In this document: in pieces, positions 6,226-45,180 of the stretch
Layout of the letters: every line of letters starts with the position of its first letter
Position numbering within the stretch: position 1 is the first letter of the stretch
Source of the DNA: a virus
Taxonomy: Duplodnaviria > Heunggongvirae > Uroviricota > Caudoviricetes
DNA: 64,000 nucleotides
Strand: one strand, 5' to 3'
Virus record (IMG/VR): IMGVR_UViG_3300027796_000011
Coordinates: 41,850-105,849 of that record
Made by a program: the position numbers and the translations under genes
Notes under the pieces: model-generated
The model's input: the letters and a program-made list of their open reading frames with translations, nothing else
Databases searched by the model: none
Told to the model about the DNA's origin: nothing

Positions 6226-6486
6226 TCAATCCACCCGTTTCCGAATCCATCTTAAATCTGTGTTAGCTGGTTTTTGTCGTGAGCGAATCCACAGCACATC
6301 GAAAATGCCAGGACTACCCACTACACAAAAACCAGTGGCTTCTGGATGCGTGTTTGCAGCAACAACTACAGGGCGTCCTAGAAATTTTACCATCCCAAGT
6401 AGTATCGGGTACAACCCTCTATCTGGGAGGGCATCTAAGCCATCCAAAGACATAAGTGTGACTACATCCCCTTTCCTAAGTCTCAT
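6226..6486 (-). CDS. hypothetical protein
   Basis: 86 aa ORF in operon context. Confidence 0.3.
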   Translation of the reverse strand: MRLRKGDVVTLMSLDGLDALPDRGLYPILLGMVKFLGRPVVVAANTHPEATGFCVVGSPGIFDVLWIRSRQKPANTDLRWIRKRVD

Positions 6487-6790
6487 TACAGCCTCCCACC
6501 CGCTTCCGAATCAGTCTTATATCCTTGTGTTCTGCATCCCGCCTTACTATCTCCACACAGTTGGGGGGCAGAATCCTGACATCCCCCGTGTCCATCTGTA
6601 TGATGTAGCCATCTTGGAGTTGGGCCAGCCCAAGAATGTATCCAAACGTAGTCCCCTTCAGAAACGGCTTTATGGGGTCTTCCAGAACGTACTTCGGAAG
6701 GTCTTTTATGCACCTCAGTTCCTTCCGGCTCTTGATGCGGCACCTTCTGTGTACGTTTTTGGTCAGTTCTTCTGTCGAGTATGTAACCAT
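6476..6790 (-). CDS. member of the HRDIRLIR small-protein family
   Basis: C-terminal AEHKDIRLIRKRVGG matches the array consensus at 11.4-15 kb. Confidence 0.45.
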   Translation of the reverse strand: MVTYSTEELTKNVHRRCRIKSRKELRCIKDLPKYVLEDPIKPFLKGTTFGYILGLAQLQDGYIIQMDTGDVRILPPNCVEIVRRDAEHKDIRLIRKRVGGCNET

Positions 6791-6821
6791 GTGCGTACCC
6801 TACACAGTCTTCTCTCTTTTG

Positions 6822-7031
6822 TCAAGAGATATCTCGCATACCTCTCATACAACCGCACGCGATGACCGTCCCGCCCTTCAAGTTGTCCACTCTGATGGTT
6901 TTTAGGTTCCCGCAGTTGAGGCACTTGCATATCCACCAAGTCTTACCGGAGTTATCCTGCGGGGTGGCTCTGGCCTTCACCAACAACTCCCCAAACTGCT
7001 GACCTACGAGGTTTGAAGGTCTTCGTGGCAT
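6822..7031 (-). CDS. small Cys-rich zinc-binding protein
   Basis: WICKCLNCGN...ACGC motif. Confidence 0.35.
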   Translation of the reverse strand: MPRRPSNLVGQQFGELLVKARATPQDNSGKTWWICKCLNCGNLKTIRVDNLKGGTVIACGCMRGMRDIS

Positions 7032-7354
7032 GTAACTTCCTCCTGCTTCACGAACTTGGCACAGCCGTAGTTACCCACGTTATGGAACAGTTCTGAGATG
7101 TAGAGACTTGCACCTTCTGGGTGGTAATACTTCACAAGTGTTCCGTACAGCCCGCACTTCCCGTAGAAGATGCCCTGGACATGGCTCTCTACAAAAGGCT
7201 CCAGCCTGTTCGCACAACTAAAACAATTCTCCTTGTGCATCCTACCCCCACTTTGGCTAGTATTTGTGCATGTCAACAACATCAGGCCCCAGGTAGGGGT
7301 CAAGCAGTTTCCGCCACAGTGTATATCCATTCTTGGTGAGATGCACCCCATCAA
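7004..7354 (-). CDS. hypothetical Cys-rich protein
   Basis: 116 aa ORF. Confidence 0.3.
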   Translation of the reverse strand: MMGCISPRMDIHCGGNCLTPTWGLMLLTCTNTSQSGGRMHKENCFSCANRLEPFVESHVQGIFYGKCGLYGTLVKYYHPEGASLYISELFHNVGNYGCAKFVKQEEVTCHEDLQTS

Positions 7355-7802
7355 CTGTGAAATTCTGACTCAATCTGTTGCTATTGTCAAGAAAAAACAG
7401 ATGAAAATCCAGAAAAAGAACCTTCGGGTCCATCATGTGGTGGCAGAGAAGTCGCAACTCTGTGTTCACCCTATACACATGGGGATTCAATTCATCTCGG
7501 CGGGTGGGCAGGACAGACTGCACATAAATCTGCGTCTCCGGGGAGCCAGCCCGAATTTTTTCAATCAGGGCTTGGTATTTTGCAGTCAACTTCAAATCTT
7601 GAATCTGATTGATACCCACCATGATGAAGATTTTCTTGGGCTTCTGTGTCAGCACCGTATCTACCATCTTGGACATATCAGCGATTGTGCCAGACACCTT
7701 CCCGACGATCACGGAACCGTTAGGAAGCAGCGGGGAGGACTCCCACCCCTTGGTGATAGAGTCCCCCAGAAACACCAGCAGAAACAGATAGACAGCACTC
7801 AT
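7257..7802 (-). CDS. SGNH/GDSL-family hydrolase (esterase)
   Basis: GGGAAGGG RBS before MSAVYLF; FLGDSIT block I with catalytic Ser; DGVHLT block V; signal-peptide-like N-terminus. Confidence 0.6.
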   Translation of the reverse strand: MSAVYLFLLVFLGDSITKGWESSPLLPNGSVIVGKVSGTIADMSKMVDTVLTQKPKKIFIMVGINQIQDLKLTAKYQALIEKIRAGSPETQIYVQSVLPTRRDELNPHVYRVNTELRLLCHHMMDPKVLFLDFHLFFLDNSNRLSQNFTVDGVHLTKNGYTLWRKLLDPYLGPDVVDMHKY

Positions 7803-8059
7803 TAACCCTTCCCCTCGCACGTAAAAGTTATCTGGTCTGGACGCCACAGCCAGTCCGCAGGACGTTTAGACAGGTGGTCCAGCAGTTCCTTGTGGGAGTT
7901 CACCACGATACAGTTATCACAGGAACTCGCCCACGGAGCATTTCCATACCCACACACAGGACACTTCCATCCCACCGGGACGGGCTGCGGAGTCTCACAG
8001 GTGTGTCCAGAACTCTCCACGATCTTGCCACAATACTGACAGTAAGTCTTATGGAACAC
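7802..8059 (-). CDS. zinc-ribbon protein
   Basis: CQYCG...CETP...CPVCG Cys4 pairs. Confidence 0.35.
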   Translation of the reverse strand: MFHKTYCQYCGKIVESSGHTCETPQPVPVGWKCPVCGYGNAPWASSCDNCIVVNSHKELLDHLSKRPADWLWRPDQITFTCEGKG

Positions 8060-8062
8060 GGT

Positions 8063-9079
8063 CTAAACCTCCACGTAACAGGATAAGATGAACTCATCTC
8101 CAACCCTTGGGTCATACAGGTTTTTCTCTGGCGGGTAGGCATCCTGCAATGCTTTGATTTCTTCCAGCCCATCAACCAGAATCTTCTCGCAGTCTGCCCA
8201 AGGAACCTTTCCTTGCTTCACTTCCAGCAACTTGTCGGCACACGGAAGCGGGAAGGAAACCCCCCAACCAGTAGTGAGAAGTTGGTGCATCTGATAGAGA
8301 CAGCGAAGGGCATGAGAGACTGCCTTCCAATCCACCCCCTCATTACTGGCTGCCTGAATAGCCCGCTGTCCGTAGCGTTCAAAATCGCCTGTAACGCGGG
8401 TGGCAAACTCCTGCATGGTGATACCCCCCATGTGGACCTTCCCGCAAAGCACGAGGCTTCTGGAGCCATTCACAACCTTCTCAAAGCAGTACGAGGCATC
8501 CCCACATTCCGCAAGAATCTCCGTCATCCAGAAGTCCAACTTGAACTCAAGGATTTTGGGGTGGGCCTTCGTCAGCCAATCATAGACTTTCTTGATGGCG
8601 TTGAGCCTGGACCCCTTGATCGAATACTTCTTCGTCTGCTGCATGATGTAGCCCAGGTAGCCCTGAACCTTGGCCGGGTCATACAGATATCTGTGAATCT
8701 CTAGGAGGTCATTAACGAGTGACCAATCATCCTGCAAGAAACACTTGGGGTTGGTATGGGCATACAGCAGATCGAGGGCGTTGGTGTCCCCCATCCCCAA
8801 CAGTTTGAACCAATACTGCACAGACCACAGTTGAATGTCTACGTCGTCAGGGCTGTTCTTTCCGTCCCCCTCCTTCGACTTGAAGGACAGGTGCTTGCAA
8901 GTCTTCCCAAGGAACAAAGACCTTGTGCTTGGCAGAAAGATGCCTTTCACATCTGTGTCAGACGCTTCCGTGTTGGTGCCGTACAGACGGCTCCCGAAAT
9001 GCGTGAGGTAGAGAAGTTCGTGTCCCTCCGTAGCACACATGCCCTCTGCCTTCTCTACCAATTGCTCATCAGTCCACAT
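8063..9079 (-). CDS. pol-beta superfamily nucleotidyltransferase
   Basis: LYGTNTEASDTDVKGIF matches hG[GS]x9-13DxD of minimal nucleotidyltransferases; 338 aa. Confidence 0.55.
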   Translation of the reverse strand: MWTDEQLVEKAEGMCATEGHELLYLTHFGSRLYGTNTEASDTDVKGIFLPSTRSLFLGKTCKHLSFKSKEGDGKNSPDDVDIQLWSVQYWFKLLGMGDTNALDLLYAHTNPKCFLQDDWSLVNDLLEIHRYLYDPAKVQGYLGYIMQQTKKYSIKGSRLNAIKKVYDWLTKAHPKILEFKLDFWMTEILAECGDASYCFEKVVNGSRSLVLCGKVHMGGITMQEFATRVTGDFERYGQRAIQAASNEGVDWKAVSHALRCLYQMHQLLTTGWGVSFPLPCADKLLEVKQGKVPWADCEKILVDGLEEIKALQDAYPPEKNLYDPRVGDEFILSCYVEV

Positions 9080-9254
9080 ACTTCCTCACCCCCAATCCCT
9101 CTAAGATTTTTGCACGACGCTCAATCCCACCCCGAAGCATGTACAGATATTCGGGTAGGCCCTCCAGGTCATCAAAAGCATCCAAGAGATCGAGTTCCCA
9201 TACAGTCTCTTCGATCAAATCTTGGAACAGTTCAACATGGCTTCTCTTTTCCAT
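9069..9254 (-). CDS. hypothetical acidic protein
   Basis: GGAGGGG RBS before MEKRSHVELF. Confidence 0.3.
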   Translation of the reverse strand: MEKRSHVELFQDLIEETVWELDLLDAFDDLEGLPEYLYMLRGGIERRAKILEGLGVRKYVD

Positions 9255-9446
9255 GCACCCCTCCAAAAGTAGCAGTCCACTCCCCGTCCGTAAACAGGTT
9301 CTCCCAATCCCGCTGAAGTTCCAGGTACTTGTCGTGGTGCTGATTAAGCATGAAGCGACAGGCATCTGGTACTTTCGTAGACACCGCGCCAAGATACACA
9401 CACTTGAACAGTAAGTCAAGTTTTTTGTTCAGTATGTCCATTTTTG

Positions 9447-9653
9447 TCACGAGTTAAAGTCCTCGTAAACGGTATTGATAACATAGTCCATGAGTGCCGG
9501 GGTTTTGGCAACTATAGCAAGCGCGGCTATCTTAGCCATGTGTTCGGGAACCAAGTCCTCGTCCTGCATGGTAGGAAGATACATACGCATAGAGCCATCC
9601 GGGGACATCACCAGAGCCGCCTCATCCTCCCCACACTTCAGATCAATCGTCAT
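9447..9653 (-). CDS. hypothetical protein
   Basis: starts MTIDLK with ATGA overlap to the upstream gene. Confidence 0.3.
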   Translation of the reverse strand: MTIDLKCGEDEAALVMSPDGSMRMYLPTMQDEDLVPEHMAKIAALAIVAKTPALMDYVINTVYEDFNS

Positions 9654-23778: not shown

Positions 23779-24063
23779 TTACTTCCATGCGGCATACTTT
23801 GCCAGGAAGTCTAGACGTTCCTGTTCCTGCGTCAAGGCGTCTGTGAGTGGGATCAGGGACTCTTCTACCCGCGCAGCCCTCTCCCGGTCAAGAAAAAAAC
23901 CTACCGTCTGATCCGCATAGTCTGACCGCACATCGGTCACGCTTGTATAAGTGTACTGGCAATGCGGGCAGTAATCCCACCCCGCACCCTGGCCCCGGAG
24001 GTGCGAACAAAACTCACAAGCCGAAGACGCGCTTGAGATGGCAACTCTTTCCATTCTTTCCAT
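23779..24063 (-). CDS. hypothetical Cys-rich protein
   Basis: 94 aa; CEFCSH...CPHC. Confidence 0.35.
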   Translation of the reverse strand: MERMERVAISSASSACEFCSHLRGQGAGWDYCPHCQYTYTSVTDVRSDYADQTVGFFLDRERAARVEESLIPLTDALTQEQERLDFLAKYAAWK

Positions 24064-24142
24064 GTTCCTACCCCCCTCATTTGTTAGAAACAGTATAGAC
24101 CAAGAATCCCAGAAATGTCAAGTAGTTTTTTCGCAGTCAAAT

Positions 24143-24607
24143 TCAATTATTGACCCGGATCATGCGGTATTGCGGGTTGGTAGTCGTCTCCGTTCCAAAT
24201 TCCAGATACAGATGACGCTTACCCTTGCGATAGATGACCAAGTACACCGAATCCGAATACAGACCAAGTTCCTTGTGCTTGGCGGTCATCTTGGCCCCGC
24301 TGTACCATTCCACCCGCACCTCGTCCCCCTCCCGCAAAAGGGACAGGATAGACTCCGCATGATATGCCGTGCTGTACAAAGCCGTGTAATAACATCCGCT
24401 CAAGTCCTTTGCCCTGGCCGAATAGTTTGAAAAATACGCCTTTGTCTCAAAAGCGTAGGTGTACTCCCCGTTCTCCCGCACGATGTGAAACTCCCACTTG
24501 CAAGTACCCGCCCCTGGCTCAGACCGTAAAACCAGGGACTTGCTCAGATACTTTTCAGCCTTGAGGACGTACTTGATAGCCTTGATGTCTTCCTTGGTAA
24601 GTTCCAT
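24143..24607 (-). CDS. hypothetical protein
   Basis: 154 aa ORF with leader. Confidence 0.4.
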   Translation of the reverse strand: MELTKEDIKAIKYVLKAEKYLSKSLVLRSEPGAGTCKWEFHIVRENGEYTYAFETKAYFSNYSARAKDLSGCYYTALYSTAYHAESILSLLREGDEVRVEWYSGAKMTAKHKELGLYSDSVYLVIYRKGKRHLYLEFGTETTTNPQYRMIRVNN

Positions 24608-24955
24608 AGTGTTTCCCTCCCGATTTTTTAATAAAGGGCATCCAAAGGAAGAACGATCTCATTTCCTACGCAACGCTCATTTTCTGCCGCTTCCTTGGAT
24701 GGAAAAACCCGGATTCGATTCAATACTCTTGTATAAGAGTTTTTGCTTCCAGGCTTGGCAACGTATCCACCTTCGCCACCTGTCCTTTTCAAAATGAATC
24801 CATTTGATTGCATGTGTGTTTCCCTCCCCGATTTGTTGAGTAGAGTATGCGCTAAAAACCTGGAAATGTCAAGAGGTTTTTTGAAGTTAATGGCGAAAAA
24901 AAAGCGGGAAGGCTTGCACCTTCCCGCACTAACTATTCAGGATTCTTTGAGATGT

Positions 24956-25897
24956 TTAGATTTCAATCAGCCGGATCAGTTCCGCCTTGTCCGGGGTTGT
25001 GATCGTCACGACAAGGCCGCTCGTGTGCCGGTATTCAGTGTCCCCGTAGGCGTCCTCCCCACTTTCCAGGTTCAGCCACCCCAGAGTCACCGTGGCCTTG
25101 TCACCCAAAGCCTTGCGGGCCTCCCGCAACTTCTCAATTTCGGCCAGTTCGGGCTTGTCGCGCTCGTTCCATCCCGCAGCCTCCCCCTCCCGGATTCCGG
25201 CGGGAAGTTTGGCGTCCGCCAGCACATTCACGACGTATTCCTGACGGGCCAGGGCCTTCCAATCAAAGCCCTCTTCAAGTCTGGCAAGCAGCAACTCCGA
25301 TCCATGCGCCTTGGCCCACTTCTCCAAAGCCGCCTCACCTTCTGCCGCTTCCTGCCGCTTGCGGGCCTCGTACTCGTCCCGGCTCTTTTCCATGTCCTGC
25401 CGCTTCCGCAACTGTTCGGCTAACTCCGCTTCACGCTTGGCTTTCTTGGCCTCTCCCGCCTCTACCAGTTGCGCTTTGATGCTGTCAAACTCTTCCTCAA
25501 CCCACCGATAGCGGGCCTTCTCAAACTCCAAGGCGGCGGAAAAACTCTCAAAAGGTGCGTCAAACCCCTCTTTCATGACATAAGAGGCAAGGGATGGGTC
25601 GTCCTTATCATGTCCAATTATGCCGATGATCGGGGAGCCGTGCTTGACAATGTACAGGCTGTCGGTGCTGATGGTCTGAGTGCCCTCCCGCTCCCGGCGG
25701 ATGGACACCCCACCCCCCACAACCTGAGTCTGCAAAAGGGCCAGGGTCAGGCTGCCGTCCCGGTCAACCTTAAAAAAGTCAACGTCTTCCGGGGAAATCT
25801 CGCCGGTCAAGGTCTGCATGGCCTTGCCGTCCAGCCCGCGCTTCAAAGCCTCACGCTGCCCAGCCTCAGTCAGCTTGTAAGTGATCGTCGCCTTCAT
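24956..25897 (-). CDS. hypothetical coiled-coil protein
   Basis: GGGAGGGAACGAAAA ATG; central E/K/R-rich helix. Confidence 0.4.
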   Translation of the reverse strand: MKATITYKLTEAGQREALKRGLDGKAMQTLTGEISPEDVDFFKVDRDGSLTLALLQTQVVGGGVSIRREREGTQTISTDSLYIVKHGSPIIGIIGHDKDDPSLASYVMKEGFDAPFESFSAALEFEKARYRWVEEEFDSIKAQLVEAGEAKKAKREAELAEQLRKRQDMEKSRDEYEARKRQEAAEGEAALEKWAKAHGSELLLARLEEGFDWKALARQEYVVNVLADAKLPAGIREGEAAGWNERDKPELAEIEKLREARKALGDKATVTLGWLNLESGEDAYGDTEYRHTSGLVVTITTPDKAELIRLIEI

Positions 25898-26037
25898 TTT
25901 TCGTTCCCTCCCGCCCGGCCCCTGCCGGGGTTGTTGTTTCATGTCCCGCGCCATCCCCAGACGGGGCGGTGTTCCCCATTCCGTTGAGTAGGAGTCTACT
26001 CAATCCTTCCAGGTTTGTCAAGCGTTTTCTTGTTTTT

Positions 26038-26137
26038 TGGTGGAGGCAGCCGGACTCGAACCGGCATCTACCGGCCCCTTACAGGGGTGCCCGCGTCCGG
26101 GCGTCCATTGTCGTTCTACCGATTAAACTATGCCCCC
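26038..26137 (-). ncRNA. tRNA-like element with non-canonical anticodon region
   Basis: 7-bp acceptor stem GGGGGCA/TGCCTCC; D arm TAGTTTAATCGGTAGAAC; perfect T arm GCCGGTTCGAGTCCGGC; 3' ACCA; the 46-nt middle forms GCCCG-GACG-CGGGC and CCCCT-GTA-AGGGG hairpins but no 5-bp/7-nt anticodon arm. Confidence 0.5.
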
Positions 26138-26181
26138 ATGAAGTAGAAGAATACTCAATCCTTCCAGGTTTGTCAAGAGAT

Positions 26182-26457
26182 TTAATAATAAACCCCTAAA
26201 GCCCGGCACGCCAGGAAAGAAAAATCTGTGTTGTGCCCGATGTGCTTGACGGCCATAGCCTGTAACAAGGCACCCTCAATCGTAGTGCATCCGCAGTTCG
26301 TGTCCCGCCCCTCCACATACGGGTGAAATATCCGGTGGTCCTCCTTGTCAAGATGCTCCACGATGCTGTACGGCCCGACCTCGTGGACTTCCACCACAAC
26401 CCCCCACACAAAGTCTATCGTATTACCGTAAATCTGTGTCGGTCTACGCACTTTCAT
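26182..26457 (-). CDS. hypothetical protein
   Basis: 91 aa ORF downstream of the promoter at 26172. Confidence 0.3.
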   Translation of the reverse strand: MKVRRPTQIYGNTIDFVWGVVVEVHEVGPYSIVEHLDKEDHRIFHPYVEGRDTNCGCTTIEGALLQAMAVKHIGHNTDFSFLACRALGVYY

Positions 26458-26692
26458 ACTCCTTCACCATATCCACCGCTTGTTGAAGAAGACTCATGCC
26501 TTCTGGGGTGGGGGAGTCCACGCATAAATCCTCAGCCACAGCAATAACCTTTTTCAAGAGTACACGAAGTTTCTCAAAGTCCTCCCACTCCACATAGGTG
26601 CCATCGGCGTCAAGTTCCATGTCACAGCCGGGGCAGTCGTCGTCACTGAGCCACAACGCACTGGACTCAAGAGAGTACCGTTTTATGCTCAT
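26444..26692 (-). CDS. hypothetical acidic protein
   Basis: 82 aa ORF. Confidence 0.3.
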   Translation of the reverse strand: MSIKRYSLESSALWLSDDDCPGCDMELDADGTYVEWEDFEKLRVLLKKVIAVAEDLCVDSPTPEGMSLLQQAVDMVKEYESA

Positions 26693-26994
26693 GTAGCCAA
26701 CCCCTTTTTGAAGTGCTTTCTCACTGCGGCCTTGTATTCCGACGGCAACGGCATAACCGTTATAAGCACCTGCGCCAGACTGTAAATGTACACCATTTCC
26801 CCGTAAATCTTGATGTCTTTGGGCTTGGAGTGGTGCGCGGAAAACAGCGCATCGAAATACTTTTCAAGCCTCCCCGTTGCGTGTCTCCTTCCCATGCCCT
26901 TACTGTAGGCGATTGTTGCAGTCCTGTCAAGGGCTTTCTTTGGGAGTCCAACCCTCTCTTTTAAGCGTCTCGCTGCATGGTATGTGGTATGCAT
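26689..26994 (-). CDS. hypothetical protein
   Basis: 101 aa ORF. Confidence 0.3.
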   Translation of the reverse strand: MHTTYHAARRLKERVGLPKKALDRTATIAYSKGMGRRHATGRLEKYFDALFSAHHSKPKDIKIYGEMVYIYSLAQVLITVMPLPSEYKAAVRKHFKKGLAT

Positions 26995-27003
26995 GGCCTC
27001 CCC

Positions 27004-27615
27004 CTACATCCTGGCGAAGACTGCAACGTCTCCGTTATAAGTGCGTTCGGACCAATAGCTGTCAATAAACAGGTCACGGGCGTATGCGTCATAGTCGAAA
27101 TACGCTTGCAGATGTTCGGGGATGGAATCCAATTCCCCCATTTCGTCAAGCAGTTGCTCCGCAAATGCTGTTTCAGAATCAAAAGTGCCCTGGAAAGCAT
27201 CCTGAAAATCATCCAGGGTTGCATCCCCACCGTTGTCGTTTGCGTAAATGGCGTAAGCCTCCCCACCCTCTTCCAGAAGCCCATCCAGCTCGACAATCCT
27301 GTCCAGCGGGGTGTACTCCTCGACCAGCCCGTAAAATCCCTCTGAGTCATGAATGGCCCACTCCTCCGCAGACGGGAACGGGGAGGGCAAAGCACCGCCA
27401 CAATCCGGGCACCGCTCCCATTTGGCGTCCACATAAACGTCGCAGTCCTTGCAACGTCTACGCATGACATTGGGGTACTTGCTCATGGCAAGCAAGGCGT
27501 TAATCTGCGACTGAAGGCTTTCCGCACTCTCCCCGTCAACGTCGATCCATGTGCCCCGCGCTTCCCCGTTGTTGTAGTCGGCCAGGATGGACACATAGAT
27601 TTTTCTGTCGCTCAT
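27004..27615 (-). CDS. ardA: ArdA-family anti-restriction protein with inserted zinc ribbon
   Basis: IYVSILADYNNGEARGTWIDV, EWAIHDSEGFYG, IPEHLQAYFDYDAYARDLF align with Tn916 ArdA (VYIANLGKYNEGELVGAWF...EYAIHDYE...LQNYIDYQAYGRDL); highly acidic; CKDCD...CPDCGG insertion. Confidence 0.75.
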   Translation of the reverse strand: MSDRKIYVSILADYNNGEARGTWIDVDGESAESLQSQINALLAMSKYPNVMRRRCKDCDVYVDAKWERCPDCGGALPSPFPSAEEWAIHDSEGFYGLVEEYTPLDRIVELDGLLEEGGEAYAIYANDNGGDATLDDFQDAFQGTFDSETAFAEQLLDEMGELDSIPEHLQAYFDYDAYARDLFIDSYWSERTYNGDVAVFARM

Positions 27616-27703
27616 TTCGTTACCCTCCCGCTTGATTTGTTGAAGTCAGTATGTGCTATTTTCCAGGTTTTGTCAAGCACTTTTCCCATTGACTTCACTA
27701 TTT

Positions 27704-28015
27704 TCAGGAAGGCGACCAACCGTGCAGACAAAAGACCCTGAGAAGCGGGTTAACCCGCTGCAAAGTGCTGCGAATGTCGTTCGTTTTACTGTACCCGGAA
27801 CCCCCCAGACGGAAATGAAAAGCCGGATATTGGCTATGCTTACTGTAAATCTGATCGGGCAGCATTTCCTTAGACTTTTTGCCAAGGTCCGAATCCGACG
27901 GCCAGAGGATATTCAACCCCTCACCCTCGTCCAGGTACACGGCAAAGCGCGTGTTAGAAAGTTGAAGGATGTAAGCCCGCTTTGCGTCCTGAATTTGTTC
28001 CGCTTGTGCCTTCAT
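27704..28015 (-). CDS. hypothetical protein
   Basis: conserved leader then MKAQAEQIQ. Confidence 0.4.
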   Translation of the reverse strand: MKAQAEQIQDAKRAYILQLSNTRFAVYLDEGEGLNILWPSDSDLGKKSKEMLPDQIYSKHSQYPAFHFRLGGSGYSKTNDIRSTLQRVNPLLRVFCLHGWSPS

Positions 28016-28092: not shown

Positions 28093-28128
28093 CAAAAAAA
28101 CGGGGGGCTTTTACACCCCCCGCACATG
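28093..28128 (-). terminator. rho-independent terminator
   Basis: GCGGGGGGTGTAAAAGCCCCCCG hairpin + T7 on the minus strand. Confidence 0.5.
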
Positions 28129-33522: not shown

Positions 33523-34260
33523 CTAGATTGTGACCCACCAGCCCGTTCTGCCGGGGATGGAAAGGCCGATATACGTTGTATCCTTAATGGTCCTCTTAAC
33601 ATACCTGTGCCAGTGCCCAAAAAGACTCAAAGCGGGCCGGTACTCCTCAATAAGAGACTGCAAAGCCTTTGTAGATGGATCGTTCCTATCCTTCTGTCGC
33701 ATCTCCATCATGGTATCCACCATGCACTCCGGGCAAGTATGACTGATAAGTATGTCATACGTCTGATGCTTTACTGCATCTAAGTCCTCTTGAGAAATGA
33801 TCTCCTCCTTCGAGAACCAATCCCACCCATCAACACGCTGACGGAAATCAACAGAACTAGCTCCCCCCATAAAAAGGGCGCGACGGCCATCAGGAAGTTC
33901 ATAGTAGCTCCCACGGGGCATGTAATAGATGTTTTCTGCTACCTCTATGGGAACCCTCCCCCCCGCCTTATCCACCAGTTCTCTAAGCATGTGATGTTGG
34001 CAATGATTGCCGTCACAGAACAGAATCTTGGTCTTTTGAGGTTTGATAGCATGGAGATACGTCAGTACATCTCCCCGCTCCAACACCCCACTATTCTTCT
34101 CGAAGTTAGTACGGAGTACCCTCCCCCCGTCCCTGGAACCCTGCACCAGAGGCCAGTATCCCATATCCCCACACACAATGCAGATTTCGGGCTGCTTCTT
34201 GGCGAGGATGCTGTTTAACTCCCCGAACTCCCCATGCTGATCCCCACACACCAGTATCAT
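33523..34260 (-). CDS. calcineurin-like metallophosphoesterase
   Basis: ILVCGDQHGE (GDxHG), CIVCGDMGYW (GDxxD), CDGNHCQHH (GNHE-like), GHWH. Confidence 0.65.
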   Translation of the reverse strand: MILVCGDQHGEFGELNSILAKKQPEICIVCGDMGYWPLVQGSRDGGRVLRTNFEKNSGVLERGDVLTYLHAIKPQKTKILFCDGNHCQHHMLRELVDKAGGRVPIEVAENIYYMPRGSYYELPDGRRALFMGGASSVDFRQRVDGWDWFSKEEIISQEDLDAVKHQTYDILISHTCPECMVDTMMEMRQKDRNDPSTKALQSLIEEYRPALSLFGHWHRYVKRTIKDTTYIGLSIPGRTGWWVTI

Positions 34261-41829: not shown

Positions 41830-44800
41830 TCAAAAAATCTGGGGTCGGCCTGTTCTGATCCTACGAACTTCTGTCCGTACCTCTTTCGTCTTCAACTGCT
41901 TCCCGCTGTTCACGGCCACTATCACATACGTTCCACCCGCCACGGCGTCTCCTACGTCCTTCCCACCCCCCTGTGGGTGGTCTGCCTTCTGCTTCTTCGG
42001 GTCGTACTTCAACTCTCGCAGTTCCTTCGTTAGTACAGGGTGGTCGGGAAGGATCAACCTGTCGTCACGTAGTCCCTGCTTCACTTCCATCCAGGGAGCC
42101 AAGTTCTTGTCCACAGAGACAATGGAACTCTTGATCTGAAACCCCCGATAATTCCTAAGTCTCCGCATACGTTGAAGCAGTGTGGCACTTTGAAACGTAT
42201 CCGATGTCACATAAATCAACGGAATCCAAGCGGCAATCAATTCAATCAAATCCCCGATCCTGTTAATGTCAATCTCATCGGACATGGGAGGAACGATCTG
42301 CAAGGCTCCATCAACAACAACCAGGGGCTTCTGCCCCGGAGTGGCCTCACGCACCTTCCCGGTTTTCTCATCGTAGTCGTAACTCTTCCCTACGTCCTTC
42401 CAGCCCCCCAAGTGCGTGACTGCCAATCCGGCACAGTCATTTGTCAAAGCCAAGTCCACATGAATCGCGTATTCATTCAAGGAATCAAGATAATCAGAAA
42501 TGTAGGTTTTGTCAAGTAGAAATTCAAGATTTTCAAAAGAATTTAAGTCTACCGAATCATGGGCGAACAGTTGCTTCCCGCTATATGCCTTGTGGTGGGC
42601 TTTAGTGGACCTGACAATAGATTCCCTGTCCTTGATGAACAGATTCACGCCACCCACCGGCACACCGGCTATATCACGGATAGCAGCATCTATATCACTC
42701 TGGAAATCGGGAAGGAAGTCCACAGGTACTTCAAGTACATCCTGAAGTTCTATCGCTTCCTCTTTGGATTGAATGATTCTGGAACGCCTTGTGTCATCCC
42801 CAACTTCAACCAGGAAGGTTTCATCAGAGAAAGTGCCTACCGGCTTGGCTTCCCACTGCGACAACGAGGAAAAGTAAATCGGGCAGGGAACACCCTTCGC
42901 CTTATAGTCATCAACCTCTGCTTTCTTGGTAGACACAAAGTCACCAGGATAGTGGGCCGAAGACATGATACACAACTTACCAGGAACCTTCCCGCGACGA
43001 TTGAAACGCGATTTGATACGTCTAGTGATGGTGCTGTAAAGTTTCTGTGCTTGGTTGTATTCTGCCTCCCCGGTGAACTTGGCCCTGGATGAGTTCTCAA
43101 TGTTCGCCATGAAGTTCACTTCGTCGAGACAATTATGTGCTATAAAAACACCGCTTCGTGCCTTTGCAAAAAACGCATGTGTATTAGGAACATTCTTCAG
43201 GTCATACACGGCACACTTTCTAAAAATAGGTTCAATCCCCATACACAAGACGGGTTGAAACCCTCTGCGAGTGCTTGGAACGTCACTTCTCTGACCTTCT
43301 CTCGAATAAGTTTTCGATACAACGCCCCCAAACCCATCTGCTGAAGAATTGCTTGCGTAACTAACCTGATGTTCTCTGTCTGACGTGCCGCAGTCATCTT
43401 TGTTAAAGTCTTTTCGTCTCGCAACCACAGGTTCCCCTTCACCTCGATAAGACCGAAAGATGTCTCGAAATCTGGTATATATATTTTCTTCTTCCCTTGA
43501 TATAGGTAAGGAAGCCTCTTGGACTCGTATTTGTATGGAATCACCAAGAAATCCAACCAAAAAGCAAACACCAACTCTAGTTTGGAAGCTAGTACCAATA
43601 AGGTGCCATCCGGGCGAAAATACCTCACCATCTTGCCACTGAACCCCGTCGCCAGAACAGCCTCCCTGCCCCGCATACAATGATATTCCATATTTGCTTT
43701 CTGCAATACGGACAACTTTAAGTACCGTTCCTTCGCGGCTAAAGACTTCGCGGCAGCATACTCCTGGTTCTGGTATAACTCTCGTAGTTTTGCAGGTCCG
43801 AGGTGCCGAACCTTCGCTATACCTCCGCGCAGGGCCTCTATAAACGCAGGGGCTTTTCTCTGCTCGTAAACATGCTCCCGTGCTTTTTCCGAACAAACCT
43901 CTGCAATGTCTTGCGCCTTCATTGTCGCTTTTGGAAATAGCTCCCGATACTTCGTAGGAGTCATGTTGTGTTTTTTCAAATGTGTCCCGGTTATCATACG
44001 CATCTCCGCACCGCACACTAGACACGGAACCAACTCCCCAGGAGATTTCCTTTTTCTCTGTGTCTCCATCATCTTCGGAGTACACAGTATCTCCCCTGGA
44101 AACATCTCCCGATACACCCTTCCAGTCATCGAATGTACGTTTTTCAAATGCTGTGTTAGATATGTAACCCGCGCTCCGCATATCTTGCATGTCAACAAAC
44201 TTAAAACACCTTCCTGGCATGTTTGAGGCTGCAATCCACTCACCGGAATCCTCCATAAACTTTTGGTCTTTAGTGCATATAATATGCTCTCCATTATCAA
44301 ACGAGACTTTATACAACTCCTTGTATCCAGTCAGTACGGACTCAACAGGACAATCAGTAGCCCTAATGACGGAACCCTCTACATCATAGGTTAAAACCGG
44401 AGAGCACCCCCCCGCATCCATGCGCACAAACGTACCATCGGAGGCAAGGTATTCTTGTTCTGGAGGAAAACAAGCAGTGAACACGTTCAAGCCCAAAGCG
44501 GACGTATCACCAGAAGCCACAGGCATGATGGTGACATCGCTCGGGAAACGGAGTTCCGTTGTAATGCTTTTGTCATACGGGAAATACTTCTGGAAGTACT
44601 CCCCCCGCCGTAGCATCTGGGAGAACTGATCGAACAGAACCTTTCTAGCAAGCGTCAGGCTCATGGATTGGAAAATCATGAAGATACTTGAGCCAGAAGA
44701 CAACCCGTACTCAAGTTGCGGGGTGTGGTAGCAAGACAGTTTATATAGCTGATACGCAAGAATTAACTGTGCGCGGAAGCTCTTACCAGAACCGATTGAG

Positions 44801-45180
44801 CCACCCAATACAACTTCTCTGATAATCGCTTCGTTTGGACCTTGAAAAATGTCATGCAATTCGGTTAACAGCATGGGCCACACCTGTCCACGAAGACCTA
44901 AAAAGAACGGGTCTTCAATGAACTGCACAATGGGAACAGGCTCCCACCGGAGTCCTGTCTTGGTTGTAAGTATGGAGTAGTCACCTGTCTGGATTGCCTT
45001 CCCGACTGATTGAAAGACCTTGGAGACTTCCTCAAGTTCAAGGAATCCATCCCCATCAGTCATGTAATGCAGCAGGGACTCTACCTCTTTCTCAACCAGG
45101 GGGCGGTGTTCTTTCGGGGTGTCCTCCAGAACCATGTCCATGCCTTCCAGGGCATCTTTTAACTTGATCTGGTCTGACAT
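41830..45180 (-). CDS. terminase large subunit precursor containing an intein
   Basis: Walker A GGSIGSGKS; intein begins CFPPEQEYLASDGTFVRMD (aa 237), block B-like TKDQKFMEDSGEWIAASNM, block F/G AVYDLKNVPNTHAFFAKARSGVFIAHN, +1 Cys directly precedes Walker B LDEVNF. Confidence 0.8.
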   Translation of the reverse strand: MSDQIKLKDALEGMDMVLEDTPKEHRPLVEKEVESLLHYMTDGDGFLELEEVSKVFQSVGKAIQTGDYSILTTKTGLRWEPVPIVQFIEDPFFLGLRGQVWPMLLTELHDIFQGPNEAIIREVVLGGSIGSGKSFRAQLILAYQLYKLSCYHTPQLEYGLSSGSSIFMIFQSMSLTLARKVLFDQFSQMLRRGEYFQKYFPYDKSITTELRFPSDVTIMPVASGDTSALGLNVFTACFPPEQEYLASDGTFVRMDAGGCSPVLTYDVEGSVIRATDCPVESVLTGYKELYKVSFDNGEHIICTKDQKFMEDSGEWIAASNMPGRCFKFVDMQDMRSAGYISNTAFEKRTFDDWKGVSGDVSRGDTVYSEDDGDTEKKEISWGVGSVSSVRCGDAYDNRDTFEKTQHDSYEVSGAISKSDNEGARHCRGLFGKSTGACLRAEKSPCVYRGPARRYSEGSAPRTCKTTRVIPEPGVCCREVFSREGTVLKVVRIAESKYGISLYAGQGGCSGDGVQWQDGEVFSPGWHLIGTSFQTRVGVCFLVGFLGDSIQIRVQEASLPISREEENIYTRFRDIFRSYRGEGEPVVARRKDFNKDDCGTSDREHQVSYASNSSADGFGGVVSKTYSREGQRSDVPSTRRGFQPVLCMGIEPIFRKCAVYDLKNVPNTHAFFAKARSGVFIAHNCLDEVNFMANIENSSRAKFTGEAEYNQAQKLYSTITRRIKSRFNRRGKVPGKLCIMSSAHYPGDFVSTKKAEVDDYKAKGVPCPIYFSSLSQWEAKPVGTFSDETFLVEVGDDTRRSRIIQSKEEAIELQDVLEVPVDFLPDFQSDIDAAIRDIAGVPVGGVNLFIKDRESIVRSTKAHHKAYSGKQLFAHDSVDLNSFENLEFLLDKTYISDYLDSLNEYAIHVDLALTNDCAGLAVTHLGGWKDVGKSYDYDEKTGKVREATPGQKPLVVVDGALQIVPPMSDEIDINRIGDLIELIAAWIPLIYVTSDTFQSATLLQRMRRLRNYRGFQIKSSIVSVDKNLAPWMEVKQGLRDDRLILPDHPVLTKELRELKYDPKKQKADHPQGGGKDVGDAVAGGTYVIVAVNSGKQLKTKEVRTEVRRIRTGRPQIF
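43132..44472 (-). other. intein (447 codons) within the terminase gene
   Basis: Cys1 at aa 237 and terminal HN at aa 682-683 in the terminase frame; the central part is kept stop-free but has odd composition. Confidence 0.7.
43197..44300 (-). CDS. +1-frame ORF nested in the intein: tandem Ros/MucR-type C2H2 zinc fingers + PD-(D/E)xK endonuclease
   Basis: CKICGARVTYLTQHLKNVHSMTGRVYREMFP and CLVCGAEMRMITGTHLKKHNMTPTKYRELFP (C-x2-C...H-x3-H-x-MT...YRE); C-terminal IYIPDFETSFGLIEVKG nuclease motif; the first ~40 codons of this span overlap the intein N-terminal splicing domain and are probably not coding. Confidence 0.55.
   Translation of the reverse strand: MIMESILYALKTKSLWRIPVSGLQPQTCQEGVLSLLTCKICGARVTYLTQHLKNVHSMTGRVYREMFPGEILCTPKMMETQRKRKSPGELVPCLVCGAEMRMITGTHLKKHNMTPTKYRELFPKATMKAQDIAEVCSEKAREHVYEQRKAPAFIEALRGGIAKVRHLGPAKLRELYQNQEYAAAKSLAAKERYLKLSVLQKANMEYHCMRGREAVLATGFSGKMVRYFRPDGTLLVLASKLELVFAFWLDFLVIPYKYESKRLPYLYQGKKKIYIPDFETSFGLIEVKGNLWLRDEKTLTKMTAARQTENIRLVTQAILQQMGLGALYRKLIREKVREVTFQALAEGFNPSCVWGLNLFLESVPCMT

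What the first reader, a model, noticed from the sequence alone, without database searches (positions are those of the whole stretch)
26038..26137. tRNA-like element with intact acceptor, D and T arms but no anticodon arm
- The minus strand forms a 7-bp acceptor stem, a D arm, a perfect GTTCGAGTC T arm and a 3' ACCA.
- The 46-nt central segment folds as two short GC hairpins and has no 5-bp/7-nt anticodon stem-loop.
- Candidate identities: an intron-containing or atypical tRNA, a tRNA-like mimic or decoy, a tmRNA-like fragment, or the attP copy of a host tRNA.
- It lies between two copies of the promoter cassette.
Basis: seen in the sequence. Interest (0 to 1): 0.6.

Follow-up and report, generated by a model that had tools for sequence, protein, structure and literature searches.

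The report
Anticodon-less alanine-type tRNA mimic in phage
A roughly 106-kb phage carries, behind its own early promoter, a 100-nt gene that has every part of an alanine tRNA except the anticodon arm, so the RNA can probably be processed and charged like a tRNA but cannot read a codon; it is either a non-decoding tRNA mimic or a recently broken tRNA gene.

Summary
Window 26038-26137 (minus strand) matches Rfam tRNA at 48.6 bits (cut-off 29), with perfect acceptor, D and T arms, all elbow nucleotides and an encoded ACCA. A 46-nt centre forming two GC hairpins stands where the anticodon arm should be.

- **Not an intron-containing tRNA:** no single deletion restores an anticodon arm; the best solution has 3 of 5 pairs, the same as shuffled sequence.
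- **Not tmRNA or attP:** there is no tag ORF and no integrase.
- **Alanine identity:** the acceptor end carries all four bacterial alanine determinants (A73, G2-C71, G3.U70, G4-C69). G3.U70 occurred in 29 of 31 tRNA-Ala genes but only 3 of 254 other tRNAs here.
- **Expression signals:** the element has its own copy of a phage-family promoter, with the predicted start about 2 nt before G1. Its 3' layout matches the phage's genuine tRNA-Thr.
- **Accessory:** it is identical in independent assemblies but absent from the one diverged relative.
- **Context:** the phage encodes RtcB, a second RNA ligase, RlaP and a phosphoesterase, and ArdA lies nearby.

Best reading: a tRNA-Ala-derived, non-decoding tRNA mimic (0.42). 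Main rival: a freshly decayed tRNA gene (0.30). No orthologue, covariation or expression data exist.

The parts
26148..26177 (-). Promoter A: C-TTGACA, 17-nt spacer, TATTCT. This is the upstream exact copy of the 26-nt cassette and drives the tRNA-like gene.
   Evidence: It belongs to a family of about 30 phage promoters with the spacer consensus aaacctggaaaa, but only copies A and B are identical at 26 of 26 positions; the others match at 10-18 of 26.
26138..26147 (-). Initial transcribed region UCUACUUCAU. The predicted start is about 2 nt upstream of G1, giving a very short RNase P leader.
   Evidence: Alignment with the conserved CTACTCAA start region of the other phage promoters. The start site is inferred, not mapped.
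26038..26137 (-). The tRNA-like RNA gene: 100 nt including the encoded CCA.
   Evidence: Rfam RF00005 at 48.6 bits, E=2.4e-7, covering the full model. Identical in L187 and L188.
26131..26137 (-). Acceptor stem 5' strand, GGGGGCA (RNA 1-7).
   Evidence: Pairs with 26042-26048: G1-C72, G2-C71, G3.U70, G4-C69, G5-C68, C6-G67, A7-U66.
26113..26128 (-). D arm, GUUU-AAUCGGUA-GAAC (RNA 10-25), with A14, A15, G18, G19 and A21.
   Evidence: Aligned to the Rfam tRNA consensus with posterior probability marked '*' throughout.
26066..26111 (-). The 46-nt central segment (RNA 27-72) that replaces the anticodon arm and variable loop.
   Evidence: No deletion yields a canonical anticodon arm.
26089..26102 (-). 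Hairpin 1, GCCCG-GACG-CGGGC (RNA 36-49).
   Evidence: Present in the minimum-free-energy and constrained folds; pair probability 0.59. Unique in the window.
26075..26087 (-). Hairpin 2, CCCC-UGUAA-GGGG (RNA 51-63). If read as a 7-nt loop, C-U-GUA-A-G resembles a Tyr anticodon loop on a stem of only 3-4 bp.
   Evidence: Pair probability 0.86-0.91. No significant recurrence in the window.
26049..26065 (-). T arm, GCCGG-UUCGAGU-CCGGC (RNA 73-89, standard positions 49-65).
26038..26048 (-). Acceptor stem 3' strand UGCCUCC, discriminator A73 and the encoded CCA.
26023..26037 (-). A-rich spacer (AAAAACAAGAAAACG) between the CCA and promoter B. There is no terminator-like site here.
   Evidence: The phage's genuine tRNA-Thr has the same layout of CCA, A-rich spacer and CTTGACA promoter.
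25993..26022 (-). Promoter B: the downstream exact copy of the cassette with -10 TAGACT. It drives the 313-aa gene at 24956-25897.
   Evidence: This is the only copy present in the relative L185.

Best explanation
This is a tRNA(Ala)-derived gene for a non-decoding tRNA mimic.

Proposed mechanism:
1. The host sigma-70 RNA polymerase transcribes it early in infection from its own copy of a phage promoter. Because no terminator follows, it is probably the 5' end of a transcript that continues into the 313-aa gene.
2. The intact acceptor/T helix and D/T-loop elbow let RNase P cut at G1 and let nucleases trim the 3' end back to the encoded CCA. This releases a stable L-shaped RNA of about 100 nt.
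3. Alanyl-tRNA synthetase reads only the acceptor stem, and the RNA carries A73, G2-C71, G3.U70 and G4-C69, so it is expected to be charged with alanine.
4. The anticodon arm is replaced by two short GC hairpins, so it cannot pair with a codon in the ribosomal A site.

It would therefore act through what it binds rather than what it decodes. The role I consider most likely is a decoy or competitor for host factors that recognise the tRNA body or acceptor end, for example tRNA-directed defence nucleases or toxins. A stable tRNA scaffold displaying the two hairpins is the alternative form of the same idea.

Shown: the anatomy, the promoter, the identity elements, the lack of any restorable anticodon arm, and the accessory status. 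Inferred: transcription, processing, charging, and above all the decoy role.
For: - tRNA core intact: Rfam tRNA 48.6 bits over the full model, with every conserved elbow nucleotide present.
- No anticodon arm: neither present nor restorable by one deletion. The best solution has 3 of 5 pairs, the mode of 1000 shuffles, and no solution has an Ala anticodon.
- Alanine identity: all four acceptor-stem determinants listed for bacterial tRNA-Ala are present, and that set includes no anticodon determinant (PMC9976931).
- G3.U70 is diagnostic: among 285 canonical tRNAs in the fetched loci it occurs in 29 of 31 tRNA-Ala genes and 3 of 254 others. It is also rare (2 of 65) among long aberrant tRNA-likes sampled from viral contigs with no constraint on the acceptor.
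- Ancestry: the conserved halves are most similar to tRNA-Ala genes.
- Expression signals: a dedicated promoter from the phage's own promoter family, an exact 26/26 duplicate of the next gene's promoter, with the start predicted about 2 nt before G1. The 3' layout matches the phage's bona fide tRNA-Thr.
- Real sequence: identical in independent assemblies from at least two samples.
- Context of tRNA conflict: RtcB, a PF09414 RNA ligase, RlaP and a calcineurin-type phosphoesterase are in the same genome, ArdA lies about 870 bp upstream, and the region is dense in early promoters.
- Structural analogues exist: other tRNA-likes with G3.U70, A73 and CCA but no usable anticodon arm occur in a temperate-phage contig (L001) and directly beside a genuine tRNA-Ala gene (L081).
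Against: - No orthologue with sequence variation was found, so there is no covariation or conservation evidence. The only diverged relative of the locus (L185, 77% aa identity in the downstream gene) lacks the element.
- There are no expression data.
- The central hairpins are not more stable than expected from composition (z=-1.4).
- Position 20 is U, not the minor Ala determinant G20.
- Long aberrant tRNA-like genes with all kinds of acceptor stems are common in viral contigs, so gene decay is a realistic source.
- Known phage tRNA counter-defence works by supplying decoding tRNAs, and mutating the anticodon abolishes it (bioRxiv 10.1101/2023.03.15.532788). A decoy role has only been suggested (PMC13096335). 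I found no paper describing an RNA of this type.
Confidence: 0.42

Rival explanations
1. It is a recently inactivated tRNA-Ala gene. An ordinary phage tRNA-Ala had its anticodon arm destroyed by an insertion or rearrangement. The remainder still looks perfect because the event is recent, and the RNA has no function.
For: - It is a singleton sequence, absent from the one diverged relative, with no conservation evidence.
- Aberrant long tRNA-likes are frequent in viral contigs.
- The stability of the central segment is explained by composition.
- Phage tRNA content turns over quickly (own knowledge).
Against: - Every one of about 20 conserved core positions and all 21 stem pairs outside the centre are intact.
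- No single indel restores an Ala anticodon arm, or any other. The change is therefore a replacement of the whole arm by 46 nt at 67% G+C in a genome of about 50% G+C, a composition reached by only about 2% of genome segments.
- It keeps a dedicated, exactly duplicated promoter at the right distance.
- It is stably identical across samples.
Confidence: 0.3
2. It is a genuine decoding tRNA that needs unconventional maturation. One or more segments would be removed by an unknown endonuclease and rejoined by the phage RtcB or RNA ligase. Alternatively, hairpin 2 (loop C-U-GUA-A-G) would serve directly as a Tyr-reading anticodon arm on an alanine-accepting body.
For: - The phage encodes RtcB, named a tRNA-splicing ligase, and a second RNA ligase.
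- The hairpin 2 loop has U33-like, GUA and purine-37-like positions.
- At least one phage-array tRNA-Ala elsewhere (L113) resolves perfectly as UUUGCAU after removing 18 nt between U33 and U34, so short insertions in phage tRNA anticodon loops may exist.
Against: - No single deletion gives more than 3 of 5 stem pairs with U33 and R37, which is the same as random sequence.
- Using hairpin 2 leaves only a 3-4 bp stem, with a 24-nt extra branch 5' of it and 9 nt 3' of it.
- No splicing endonuclease was found.
- Phage RtcB and Rnl are adequately explained as repair of nuclease-cut tRNAs (own knowledge; PMC12776372 for RlaP).
Confidence: 0.1
3. It is an RNA-processing signal rather than a trans-acting RNA. 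The tRNA-like fold recruits RNase P and 3' trimming enzymes to cut read-through transcripts, insulating the 313-aa gene's mRNA from upstream transcription or fixing its ends.
For: - No terminator-like site lies between the upstream ORFs, the element and the 313-aa gene. The next minus-strand terminator-like sites are at 24904-24927 and 28100-28123.
- The element sits between tandem copies of the same promoter.
- tRNA-like punctuation of transcripts is known in other systems (own knowledge).
Against: - A processing signal does not need a full alanine identity set or an encoded CCA.
- Promoter A, placed about 2 nt before G1, makes the element the first thing transcribed rather than an internal cut site.
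- The relative L185 expresses the same gene without it.
Confidence: 0.08
4. It is an attP or integration-site remnant: a copy of a host tRNA gene segment used for site-specific integration.
For: Many temperate phages integrate into tRNA or tmRNA genes and carry the matching 3' segment (own knowledge).
Against: - The full-length tRNA body, not just a 3' segment, is present with its own promoter.
- No integrase or recombinase domain was found among the ORFs scanned, and the neighbours are ArdA and small early genes.
- The genome content looks lytic: RNR, ThyX, DnaB, primase and repair enzymes.
- The exact 3' half is absent from viral contigs.
Confidence: 0.03
5. It is a tmRNA-like, or minimal tmRNA, molecule acting in ribosome rescue.
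For: - It shares with the tmRNA tRNA-like domain the G3.U70/A73/CCA acceptor end, the T arm and the lack of an anticodon (own knowledge; PMC3929946 abstract).
- The analogue L001 aligns end to end to the Rfam tmRNA model at 23.7 bits.
Against: - ARAGORN's tmRNA mode finds nothing.
- Rfam tmRNA models score at most 16 bits against a cut-off of 47.
- There is no tag reading frame, resume codon or pseudoknot in 46 nt.
- The D arm is a canonical paired D arm, unlike that of tmRNA.
Confidence: 0.02

Closest known systems
Canonical bacterial or phage tRNA-Ala (Rfam RF00005)
   Same: 7-bp acceptor stem with G1-C72, G2-C71, G3.U70 and G4-C69, plus A73 and CCA. Canonical D and T arms and elbow nucleotides. 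Passes the Rfam gathering score. The conserved halves are most similar to tRNA-Ala genes.
   Different: There is no 5-bp/7-nt anticodon stem-loop and no NGC anticodon. A 46-nt segment with two GC hairpins stands in its place, and position 20 is U rather than G. It cannot decode.
tRNA-like domain of tmRNA, and alanine-accepting RNA minihelices
   Same: Alanine acceptor identity based on G3.U70 without any anticodon. Expected to be charged by AlaRS independently of the rest of the molecule (Francklyn and Schimmel 1989, cited in PMC9976931; PMC3929946).
   Different: It has no mRNA-like module, pseudoknots or tag. The D arm is fully paired. It is only 100 nt long, and the tmRNA models do not match.
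Phage tRNAs that neutralise tRNA-targeting defences (T5 tRNA-Lys against PARIS; T5 or T6 tRNA-Tyr against retron-Eco7 and Septu)
   Same: A phage-encoded tRNA-type RNA, made early from a strong phage promoter, in a genome clearly engaged in conflict over tRNA (RNA-repair enzymes, with ArdA nearby) (PMC11464382, PMC13096335, bioRxiv 10.1101/2023.03.15.532788).
   Different: Those RNAs are decoding tRNAs that replace the cleaved host species, and anticodon mutations abolish rescue. This RNA has no anticodon arm, so it could act only as a decoy or competitor, a mode that has not been demonstrated.
Non-decoding tRNA-like small RNAs and irregular tRNAs (B. cereus tRNA-Other, bacterial YrlA Y-RNA modules, allo-tRNA-like RNAs with five-stem junctions, engineered tRNA scaffolds)
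   Same: A tRNA-shaped body used for something other than standard decoding. A five-way junction is the most stable fold once the tRNA arms are imposed. Inactive allo-tRNA-like sequences are also described as possible five-stem junctions (PMC7609411).
   Different: Acceptor/T-stem geometry is 7/5, not 8/4 or 9/3. The 5' and 3' ends form the acceptor stem, unlike in YrlA. No Rfam family other than tRNA matches. The setting is a phage with a dedicated promoter.
Structural analogues found here: L001 (IMG/VR temperate-phage contig), L081 (next to tRNA-Ala) and about 20 further long tRNA-likes with G3.U70, A73 and CCA
   Same: Ala-type acceptor end with encoded CCA, intact D and T arms, and 40-55 nt in place of the anticodon arm that cannot be resolved into a tRNA-Ala anticodon arm. 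Most of those tested are called tRNA by Rfam at 32-58 bits; L001 and L158 are exceptions.
   Different: There is no detectable sequence similarity in the central part, so these are analogues and not homologues. They were found with a pattern that forced U70-C71-C72-A73. An unbiased viral scan shows no enrichment of Ala-type acceptors among long tRNA-likes (2 of 65).

Membership tests
tRNA (Rfam RF00005) | Covariance-model score at or above the gathering threshold of 29 bits | tested here: met
   48.6 bits, E=2.4e-7, model positions 1-71.
tRNA (Rfam RF00005) | 7-bp acceptor stem, D arm with G18 and G19, and T arm with the U54-U55-C56 and A58 loop | tested here: met
   All are present and aligned with high posterior probability.
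tRNA (Rfam RF00005) | Anticodon arm: 5-bp stem and 7-nt loop with U33 and a purine at 37 | tested here: not met
   The model skips 38 nt, and ARAGORN's default, intron and tmRNA modes find nothing. The brute-force search finds no such arm.
Intron-containing tRNA | Removing one contiguous segment yields a canonical anticodon arm | tested here: not met
   0 solutions with 5 pairs, and 0 with at least 4 pairs plus U33 and R37. The best is 3 pairs, the mode of 1000 shuffles. No solution has an Ala anticodon.
Intron-containing tRNA | A splicing mechanism is available: a group I intron core, or a splicing endonuclease plus a ligase | tested here: inconclusive
   There is no group I intron match in the window, and the insert is far too short for one. 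No endonuclease domain of that kind was found among the ORFs scanned. However, two RNA ligases, RtcB and a PF09414 protein, are encoded.
tRNA-Ala identity (substrate of AlaRS) | G3.U70 wobble pair | tested here: met
   G3 (26135) pairs with U70 (26044). G3.U70 occurs in 29 of 31 tRNA-Ala genes against 3 of 254 other tRNAs in the fetched loci.
tRNA-Ala identity (substrate of AlaRS) | A73, G2-C71 and G4-C69 (bacterial set) | tested here: met
   All three are present. The determinant list comes from PMC9976931.
tRNA-Ala identity (substrate of AlaRS) | G20 (minor determinant) | tested here: not met
   Position 20 is U in the D loop AAUCGGUA.
tRNA-Ala identity (substrate of AlaRS) | Actual aminoacylation with alanine | not testable with these tools
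   This needs an in vitro AlaRS assay, or acid-urea Northern blots or periodate sequencing.
tmRNA | A tag-peptide reading frame with resume codon, and pseudoknots, between the two halves of the tRNA-like domain | tested here: not met
   ARAGORN's tmRNA mode finds nothing. The only tmRNA-type Rfam match is a 16-bit partial hit of the permuted model, cut-off 47. Only 46 nt lie between the D and T arms.
Phage attP in a tRNA gene | An adjacent integrase, and only the 3' part of the tRNA is present | tested here: not met
   No integrase domain was found among the ORFs scanned. The gene is full length and has its own promoter.
Phage attP in a tRNA gene | Sequence identity with a host tRNA gene | not tested
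The 3' half is absent from viral contigs.
YrlA / bacterial Y RNA | A Ro-binding stem formed by the 5' and 3' ends, with an internal tRNA-like module and a linked rsr gene | tested here: not met
   Here the 5' and 3' ends form the acceptor stem. No Y-RNA family matched even at E up to 10.
Functional (selected) structured RNA | Conservation and compensatory changes across orthologues | tested here: inconclusive
   The only copies found are identical. The one diverged relative lacks the element. No other relatives exist in the protein databases searched.

The most novel reading that the evidence does not exclude
The RNA is a new kind of RNA anti-defence factor: an anticodon-less tRNA mimic that AlaRS can charge. 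The phage would make it in bulk from an early promoter to soak up or misdirect host immune effectors that recognise the tRNA body or acceptor end, such as tRNA-directed nucleases or acceptor-end toxins. It would work alongside the phage's unusually complete RNA-repair kit (RtcB, Rnl-type ligase, RlaP, phosphoesterase) and the nearby ArdA. The scattered, non-homologous Ala-type anticodon-less tRNA-likes in other phage contigs (L001, L081) would then be convergent examples of the same strategy.
Probability: 0.13. Interest if true: 0.8.

Novelty: new variant of a known kind. Interest (0 to 1): 0.45.

Why it matters
Phage tRNAs are now understood mainly as replacements for host tRNAs destroyed by immune nucleases. 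An RNA that keeps everything needed to be handled and charged as tRNA-Ala, but has had its decoding arm replaced, cannot act that way. If it is functional, it points to a second, decoy-type use of the tRNA shape in phage-host conflict. It would also be a natural counterpart of the engineered tRNA scaffold.

There is a practical consequence too. Rfam-based pipelines would annotate this gene, and dozens of similar long tRNA-likes found here, simply as tRNA, while ARAGORN misses them. They are therefore either mislabelled or invisible in phage annotations and in codon-usage analyses.

If it is only a broken tRNA gene, it is an unusually clean snapshot of how phage tRNA genes decay.

Tried and rejected
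- **Close DNA relatives:** megablast of 24000-28000 and blastn of the element against GenBank phages found no match. Exact 25-mers of the 5' and 3' halves gave 0 hits in viral contigs.
- **Wasted scan:** one viral scan was lost to a pattern that was off by one in the acceptor strand. After that I validated every pattern on the window first.
- **Orthologues through neighbouring proteins:** The search for related loci with the 313-aa and 91-aa proteins found nothing. Deep protein searches with the 313-aa, 91-aa and 101-aa proteins returned only the same phage plus one 77%-identical fragment that lacks the element. No covariation test was therefore possible.
- **Intron model:** rejected by exhaustive deletion search with a shuffle null. 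ARAGORN's calls at lowered thresholds are inconsistent, including a call on the wrong strand.
- **tmRNA, Y RNA and all other Rfam families:** nothing at E up to 10 apart from tRNA and two chance-level matches.
- **Centre derived from, or antisense to, the conserved 5'UTR downstream:** the local similarity (ACCCC-loop-GGGGCCGG) and its co-linear spacing (repeat D4, 156 nt, against the promoter repeat at 155 nt) looked promising but were not significant (p=0.08 local, p=0.055 global).
- **Either hairpin as a repeated protein-binding site in the genome:** no recurrence beyond chance.
- **UGUAA (Tyr-like) loop as a shared motif:** it appears in the window element, L158, L121, L147 and L001, which by my rough hand estimate is only marginally above expectation. 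I kept it as an unverified lead only.
- **An Ala-specific class of anticodon-less phage tRNA mimics:** my first pattern forced U70-C71-C72-A73. The unbiased rescan showed only 2 of 65 long viral tRNA-likes with G3.U70 (one search used the wrong index and one search corrected it). An Ala-specific class is therefore not supported.
- **Function of the co-regulated 313-aa protein:** no Pfam, PHROG or PADLOC hit. The AlphaFold model had mean pLDDT 49, too poor for a fold search.
- **PARIS link through ArdA and tRNA-Thr:** the PARIS paper mentions neither.
Full report
**1. What is there**

On the minus strand, window 26137..26038 reads GGGGGCA UA GUUU-AAUCGGUA-GAAC G [46 nt] GCCGG-UUCGAGU-CCGGC UGCCUCC A CCA. 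Rfam's tRNA model matches it over the whole model at 48.6 bits (gathering score 29, E=2.4e-7 for the 64-kb window). It is the only family in the window to reach its threshold, but the alignment jumps over 38 nt where 13 are expected. ARAGORN finds no tRNA or tmRNA in the window, and none at this locus in its intron or tmRNA modes. Only with thresholds lowered does it make weak, mutually inconsistent calls, one of them on the wrong strand. Every nucleotide that builds the tRNA elbow is present: U8, A14, A15 with U48, G18, G19, A21, G26, G53-C61, U54, U55, C56, G57 and A58. The 46-nt centre folds into two GC hairpins, GCCCG-GACG-CGGGC and CCCC-UGUAA-GGGG, with pair probabilities of 0.59 and about 0.9. 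With the tRNA arms imposed, a five-way junction (-39.7 to -40.6 kcal/mol) is more stable than a version with a closing stem (-37.7).

**2. It is not a canonical tRNA with an intron**

I enumerated every single contiguous deletion of the 46-nt centre, for every variable-region length from 3 to 21 nt (4 to 24 in the re-run with the null), and asked for a 5-bp stem and a 7-nt loop with U33 and a purine at 37. No solution has 5 pairs, and none has 4 pairs with U33 and R37. The best is 3 pairs, which is the mode of 1000 shuffles of the same 46 nt (21% of shuffles reach 4 pairs and 3.5% reach 5). With an alanine anticodon (NGC) required, there is no solution at all. By contrast, 20 of the 45 long tRNA-likes with G3.U70 that I collected resolve perfectly as tRNA-Ala plus an insertion. 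Most of these are archaeal introns at the canonical position, so the test does detect real introns. No group I intron, tmRNA, Y RNA or other Rfam family matches, even at E up to 10. No splicing endonuclease or integrase domain was found among the ORFs I scanned.

**3. The acceptor end says alanine**

The stem is G1-C72, G2-C71, G3.U70, G4-C69, G5-C68, C6-G67, A7-U66, with discriminator A73. The published bacterial alanine identity set is A73, G2-C71, G3.U70 and G4-C69 in the acceptor stem, G20 in the core, and nothing in the anticodon (PMC9976931). The element's conserved halves are also most similar to tRNA-Ala genes: the two best matches and 7 of the top 12 are tRNA-Ala, and tRNA-Ala has the highest mean score by isotype. 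That reference set is, however, enriched for Ala loci. AlaRS charges even acceptor minihelices that carry G3.U70 (work cited in PMC9976931), so the RNA is expected to accept alanine although it cannot decode. This step is an inference, not a result.

**4. It looks like an expressed gene of this phage**

The window is phage DNA. It encodes a terminase, ribonucleotide reductase, ThyX, PhoH, a C5 methylase and an AAA ATPase, and the flanks fetched from the same genome add capsid, tail, DnaB and primase genes. Minus-strand promoters are abundant: 30 sites share the consensus ...cTTGACAaaacctggaaaa...CATACT...CTACTCAA. The two cassettes flanking the element belong to this family. They are identical to each other at 26 of 26 positions, whereas all other members match at 10-18 of 26, and the similarity extends to 42 nt at 88%. 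Promoter A (TTGACA, 17 nt, TATTCT) ends 10 nt before G1. Aligning the conserved initial transcribed region puts the start about 2 nt upstream of G1. After the CCA come 15 A-rich nucleotides and then promoter B, with no terminator-like site before 24904-24927. The phage's one canonical tRNA, tRNA-Thr(UGU), lies just outside the window and scores 60.7 bits. It has the same 3' layout of encoded CCA, A-rich spacer and CTTGACA promoter. The element and both cassettes are identical in independent assemblies from different JGI samples, and the contigs reach about 106 kb.

**5. It is accessory**

The only diverged relative of the locus is an ENA contig with 77% amino-acid identity in the downstream gene. 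There, the homologue of ORF 26689-26994 is followed directly by a single promoter copy, a conserved GC-rich leader of about 100 nt, and the gene. The 82-aa and 91-aa ORFs, promoter A and the tRNA-like element are all missing. The element therefore sits in a variable cassette bounded by promoter repeats. No other relative exists in the databases I could search, so conservation and covariation cannot be assessed. This is the main weakness of any functional claim.

**6. Context**

This one genome encodes four RNA-repair-type enzymes:
- RtcB at 49136-50242;
- a PF09414 ATP-dependent RNA ligase at 59798-60703;
- an RlaP nucleotidyltransferase at 8063-9079, a family recently shown to add nucleotides to the 3' ends of damaged RNAs and to be needed to restore the function of heavily damaged, repaired tRNA (PMC12776372);
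- a calcineurin-type phosphoesterase at 33523-34260.

That is a full heal-and-seal toolkit, which implies that the host attacks tRNAs. An ArdA anti-restriction gene lies about 870 bp upstream of the element. The literature I could search shows that phage tRNAs defeat PARIS, retron-Eco7 and Septu by supplying functional tRNAs, in some cases cleavage-resistant variants, and that anticodon mutations abolish rescue. A decoy role is only suggested. I found no description of an anticodon-less alanine-type tRNA mimic in phages.

**7. Analogues elsewhere**

I scanned for a D arm, a gap too long for a class I tRNA, a T arm and ...UCCACCA. This returned 3 viral, 62 genomic and more than 119 metagenomic loci. 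In 82 matches (65 distinct sequences) the acceptor stem closes. The set contains archaeal intron-bearing tRNA-Ala genes, class II tRNAs and tandem genes. About 25 sequences with G3.U70, A73 and CCA cannot be turned into tRNA-Ala. These include:
- L001, in a temperate-phage contig, where ARAGORN finds nothing and Rfam reports only a sub-threshold tmRNA match at 23.7 bits;
- L081, a 6-bp stem with a tetraloop and an unstructured tail, lying directly after a genuine tRNA-Ala(UGC);
- L158, a long arm ending in the same C-UGUAA-G loop;
- two sequence-related groups from Acidobacteriota and Verrucomicrobiota MAGs.

These are analogues, not homologues, because the centres share no sequence. The pattern also forced U70-C71-C72-A73. 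A rescan of viral contigs with no constraint on the acceptor gave 65 closing candidates, of which only 2 have G3.U70. Anticodon-less or oversized tRNA-likes are thus common in viruses and are not specifically alanine-type. This result supports the pseudogene rival as much as it supports a functional class.

**8. Verdict**

The anatomy is best described as a tRNA(Ala)-derived tRNA-like gene in which the whole anticodon arm has been replaced. Four observations favour function:
- the untouched core;
- the complete alanine identity set;
- the dedicated, exactly duplicated promoter at the right distance;
- a replacement segment with 67% G+C, a composition found in only about 2% of segments of this genome.

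Three weigh against it: the absence of any orthologue, its absence from the one relative, and a central fold that is no better than its composition predicts (z=-1.4). I assign 0.42 to a functional non-decoding tRNA mimic, within which the specific decoy role deserves about 0.13. The rivals are a freshly decayed tRNA gene (0.30), an unconventionally matured decoding tRNA (0.10), a transcript-processing signal (0.08), attP (0.03) and a tmRNA-like RNA (0.02). It is a new variant of a known kind, namely tRNA-like RNAs and irregular tRNAs. It is of moderate interest and is readily testable by Northern blot, RNase P and AlaRS assays, and a deletion mutant.

Noticed in passing
window 41830-45180 (-): The terminase large subunit ORF is 1116 aa. 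It matches phage TerL proteins in two separate pieces that together cover only about 50-59% of it, which implies an insert of roughly 500 aa, probably an intein with a homing endonuclease.
   Followed up: no
window 49136-50242 (-), 59798-60703 (-), 8063-9079 (-), 33523-34260 (-): One phage carries four RNA-repair-type enzymes: RtcB, a PF09414 ATP-dependent RNA ligase, an RlaP nucleotidyltransferase and a calcineurin-like phosphoesterase. This is an unusually complete heal-and-seal kit and implies strong host pressure on tRNAs.
   Followed up: partly
window 25898-25995 (-); L185 170-285: The GC-rich 5' leader of about 100 nt in front of the 313-aa gene is about 90% identical to that of the relative L185, while the protein is only 77% identical. 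It contains the hairpins GGGG-AACACCG-CCCC and CCCGGC-AGGG-GCCGGG next to the GGGAGGG Shine-Dalgarno sequence, so it may be a structured regulatory leader.
   Followed up: partly
window 20000-63000 (-), e.g. 30582, 29392, 28072, 27676, 24872, 23427: About 30 promoters share an extended consensus that goes well beyond the two hexamers (aaaacctcTTGACAaaacctggaaaa..CATACT..CTACTCAA, plus a variant with TTTTCCCAGAAAAAG in the spacer). The conserved spacer suggests a phage-specific regulator or sigma-factor contact.
   Followed up: partly
L311 274-350 (-) (same phage, outside the window); L312 1-75 (-): The phage encodes one canonical tRNA-Thr(UGU) with an encoded CCA, followed by an A-rich spacer and a CTTGACA promoter. 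A Logan-assembled relative carries a diverged copy.
   Followed up: partly
L074 7651-7747 (+), inside the 23S rRNA gene at 6324-9479: A 97-nt tRNA-like with G3.U70, A73 and CCA (Rfam tRNA 53.8 bits) lies inside a bacterial 23S rRNA gene as an intervening sequence. A group I intron match (58.9 bits) lies at 10467-10675.
   Followed up: no
L018, L140, L102, L183, L086, L147 (and L047); L010, L162, L123: There are two sequence-related groups of long tRNA-likes (93-105 nt) with G3.U70, A73 and CCA in Acidobacteriota and Verrucomicrobiota MAGs and soil metagenomes. One has a GGGGA/UCCCC stem closing a 25-30-nt loop with conserved AAG..CGGCUC motifs. The other has a rod of about 20 bp ending in UUGGAAACUG. 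Rfam calls them tRNA at 44-58 bits, and none resolves to a tRNA-Ala anticodon arm.
   Followed up: partly
L113 2216-2310 (-): In a phage-like tRNA array, next to a normal tRNA-Ala(UGC), a second Ala-type gene becomes a perfect tRNA-Ala (loop UUUGCAU, 5-bp stem) if 18 nt between U33 and U34 are removed. This would be a short insertion in the anticodon loop at a non-canonical position, in a bacterial-virus context.
   Followed up: partly
L004, L033, L163, L175, L113 1284-1377, L118 3322-3409, L236, L280, L230, L297: tRNA-Ile(UAU) genes with a long, class II-like variable arm (88-96 nt) recur in Planctomycetota MAGs and in phage tRNA arrays.
   Followed up: no
L202, L265, L279, L207, L219, L302 (IMG/VR): Eukaryote-type tRNA-Tyr(GUA) genes with canonical 37/38 introns occur in IMG/VR contigs. 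They presumably come from giant viruses or from eukaryotic contamination.
   Followed up: no
window 1633-2592 (-): An HNH endonuclease gene sits between the tail-tube and major-capsid genes. Together with the probable terminase intein, it indicates several selfish elements in the structural module.
   Followed up: no
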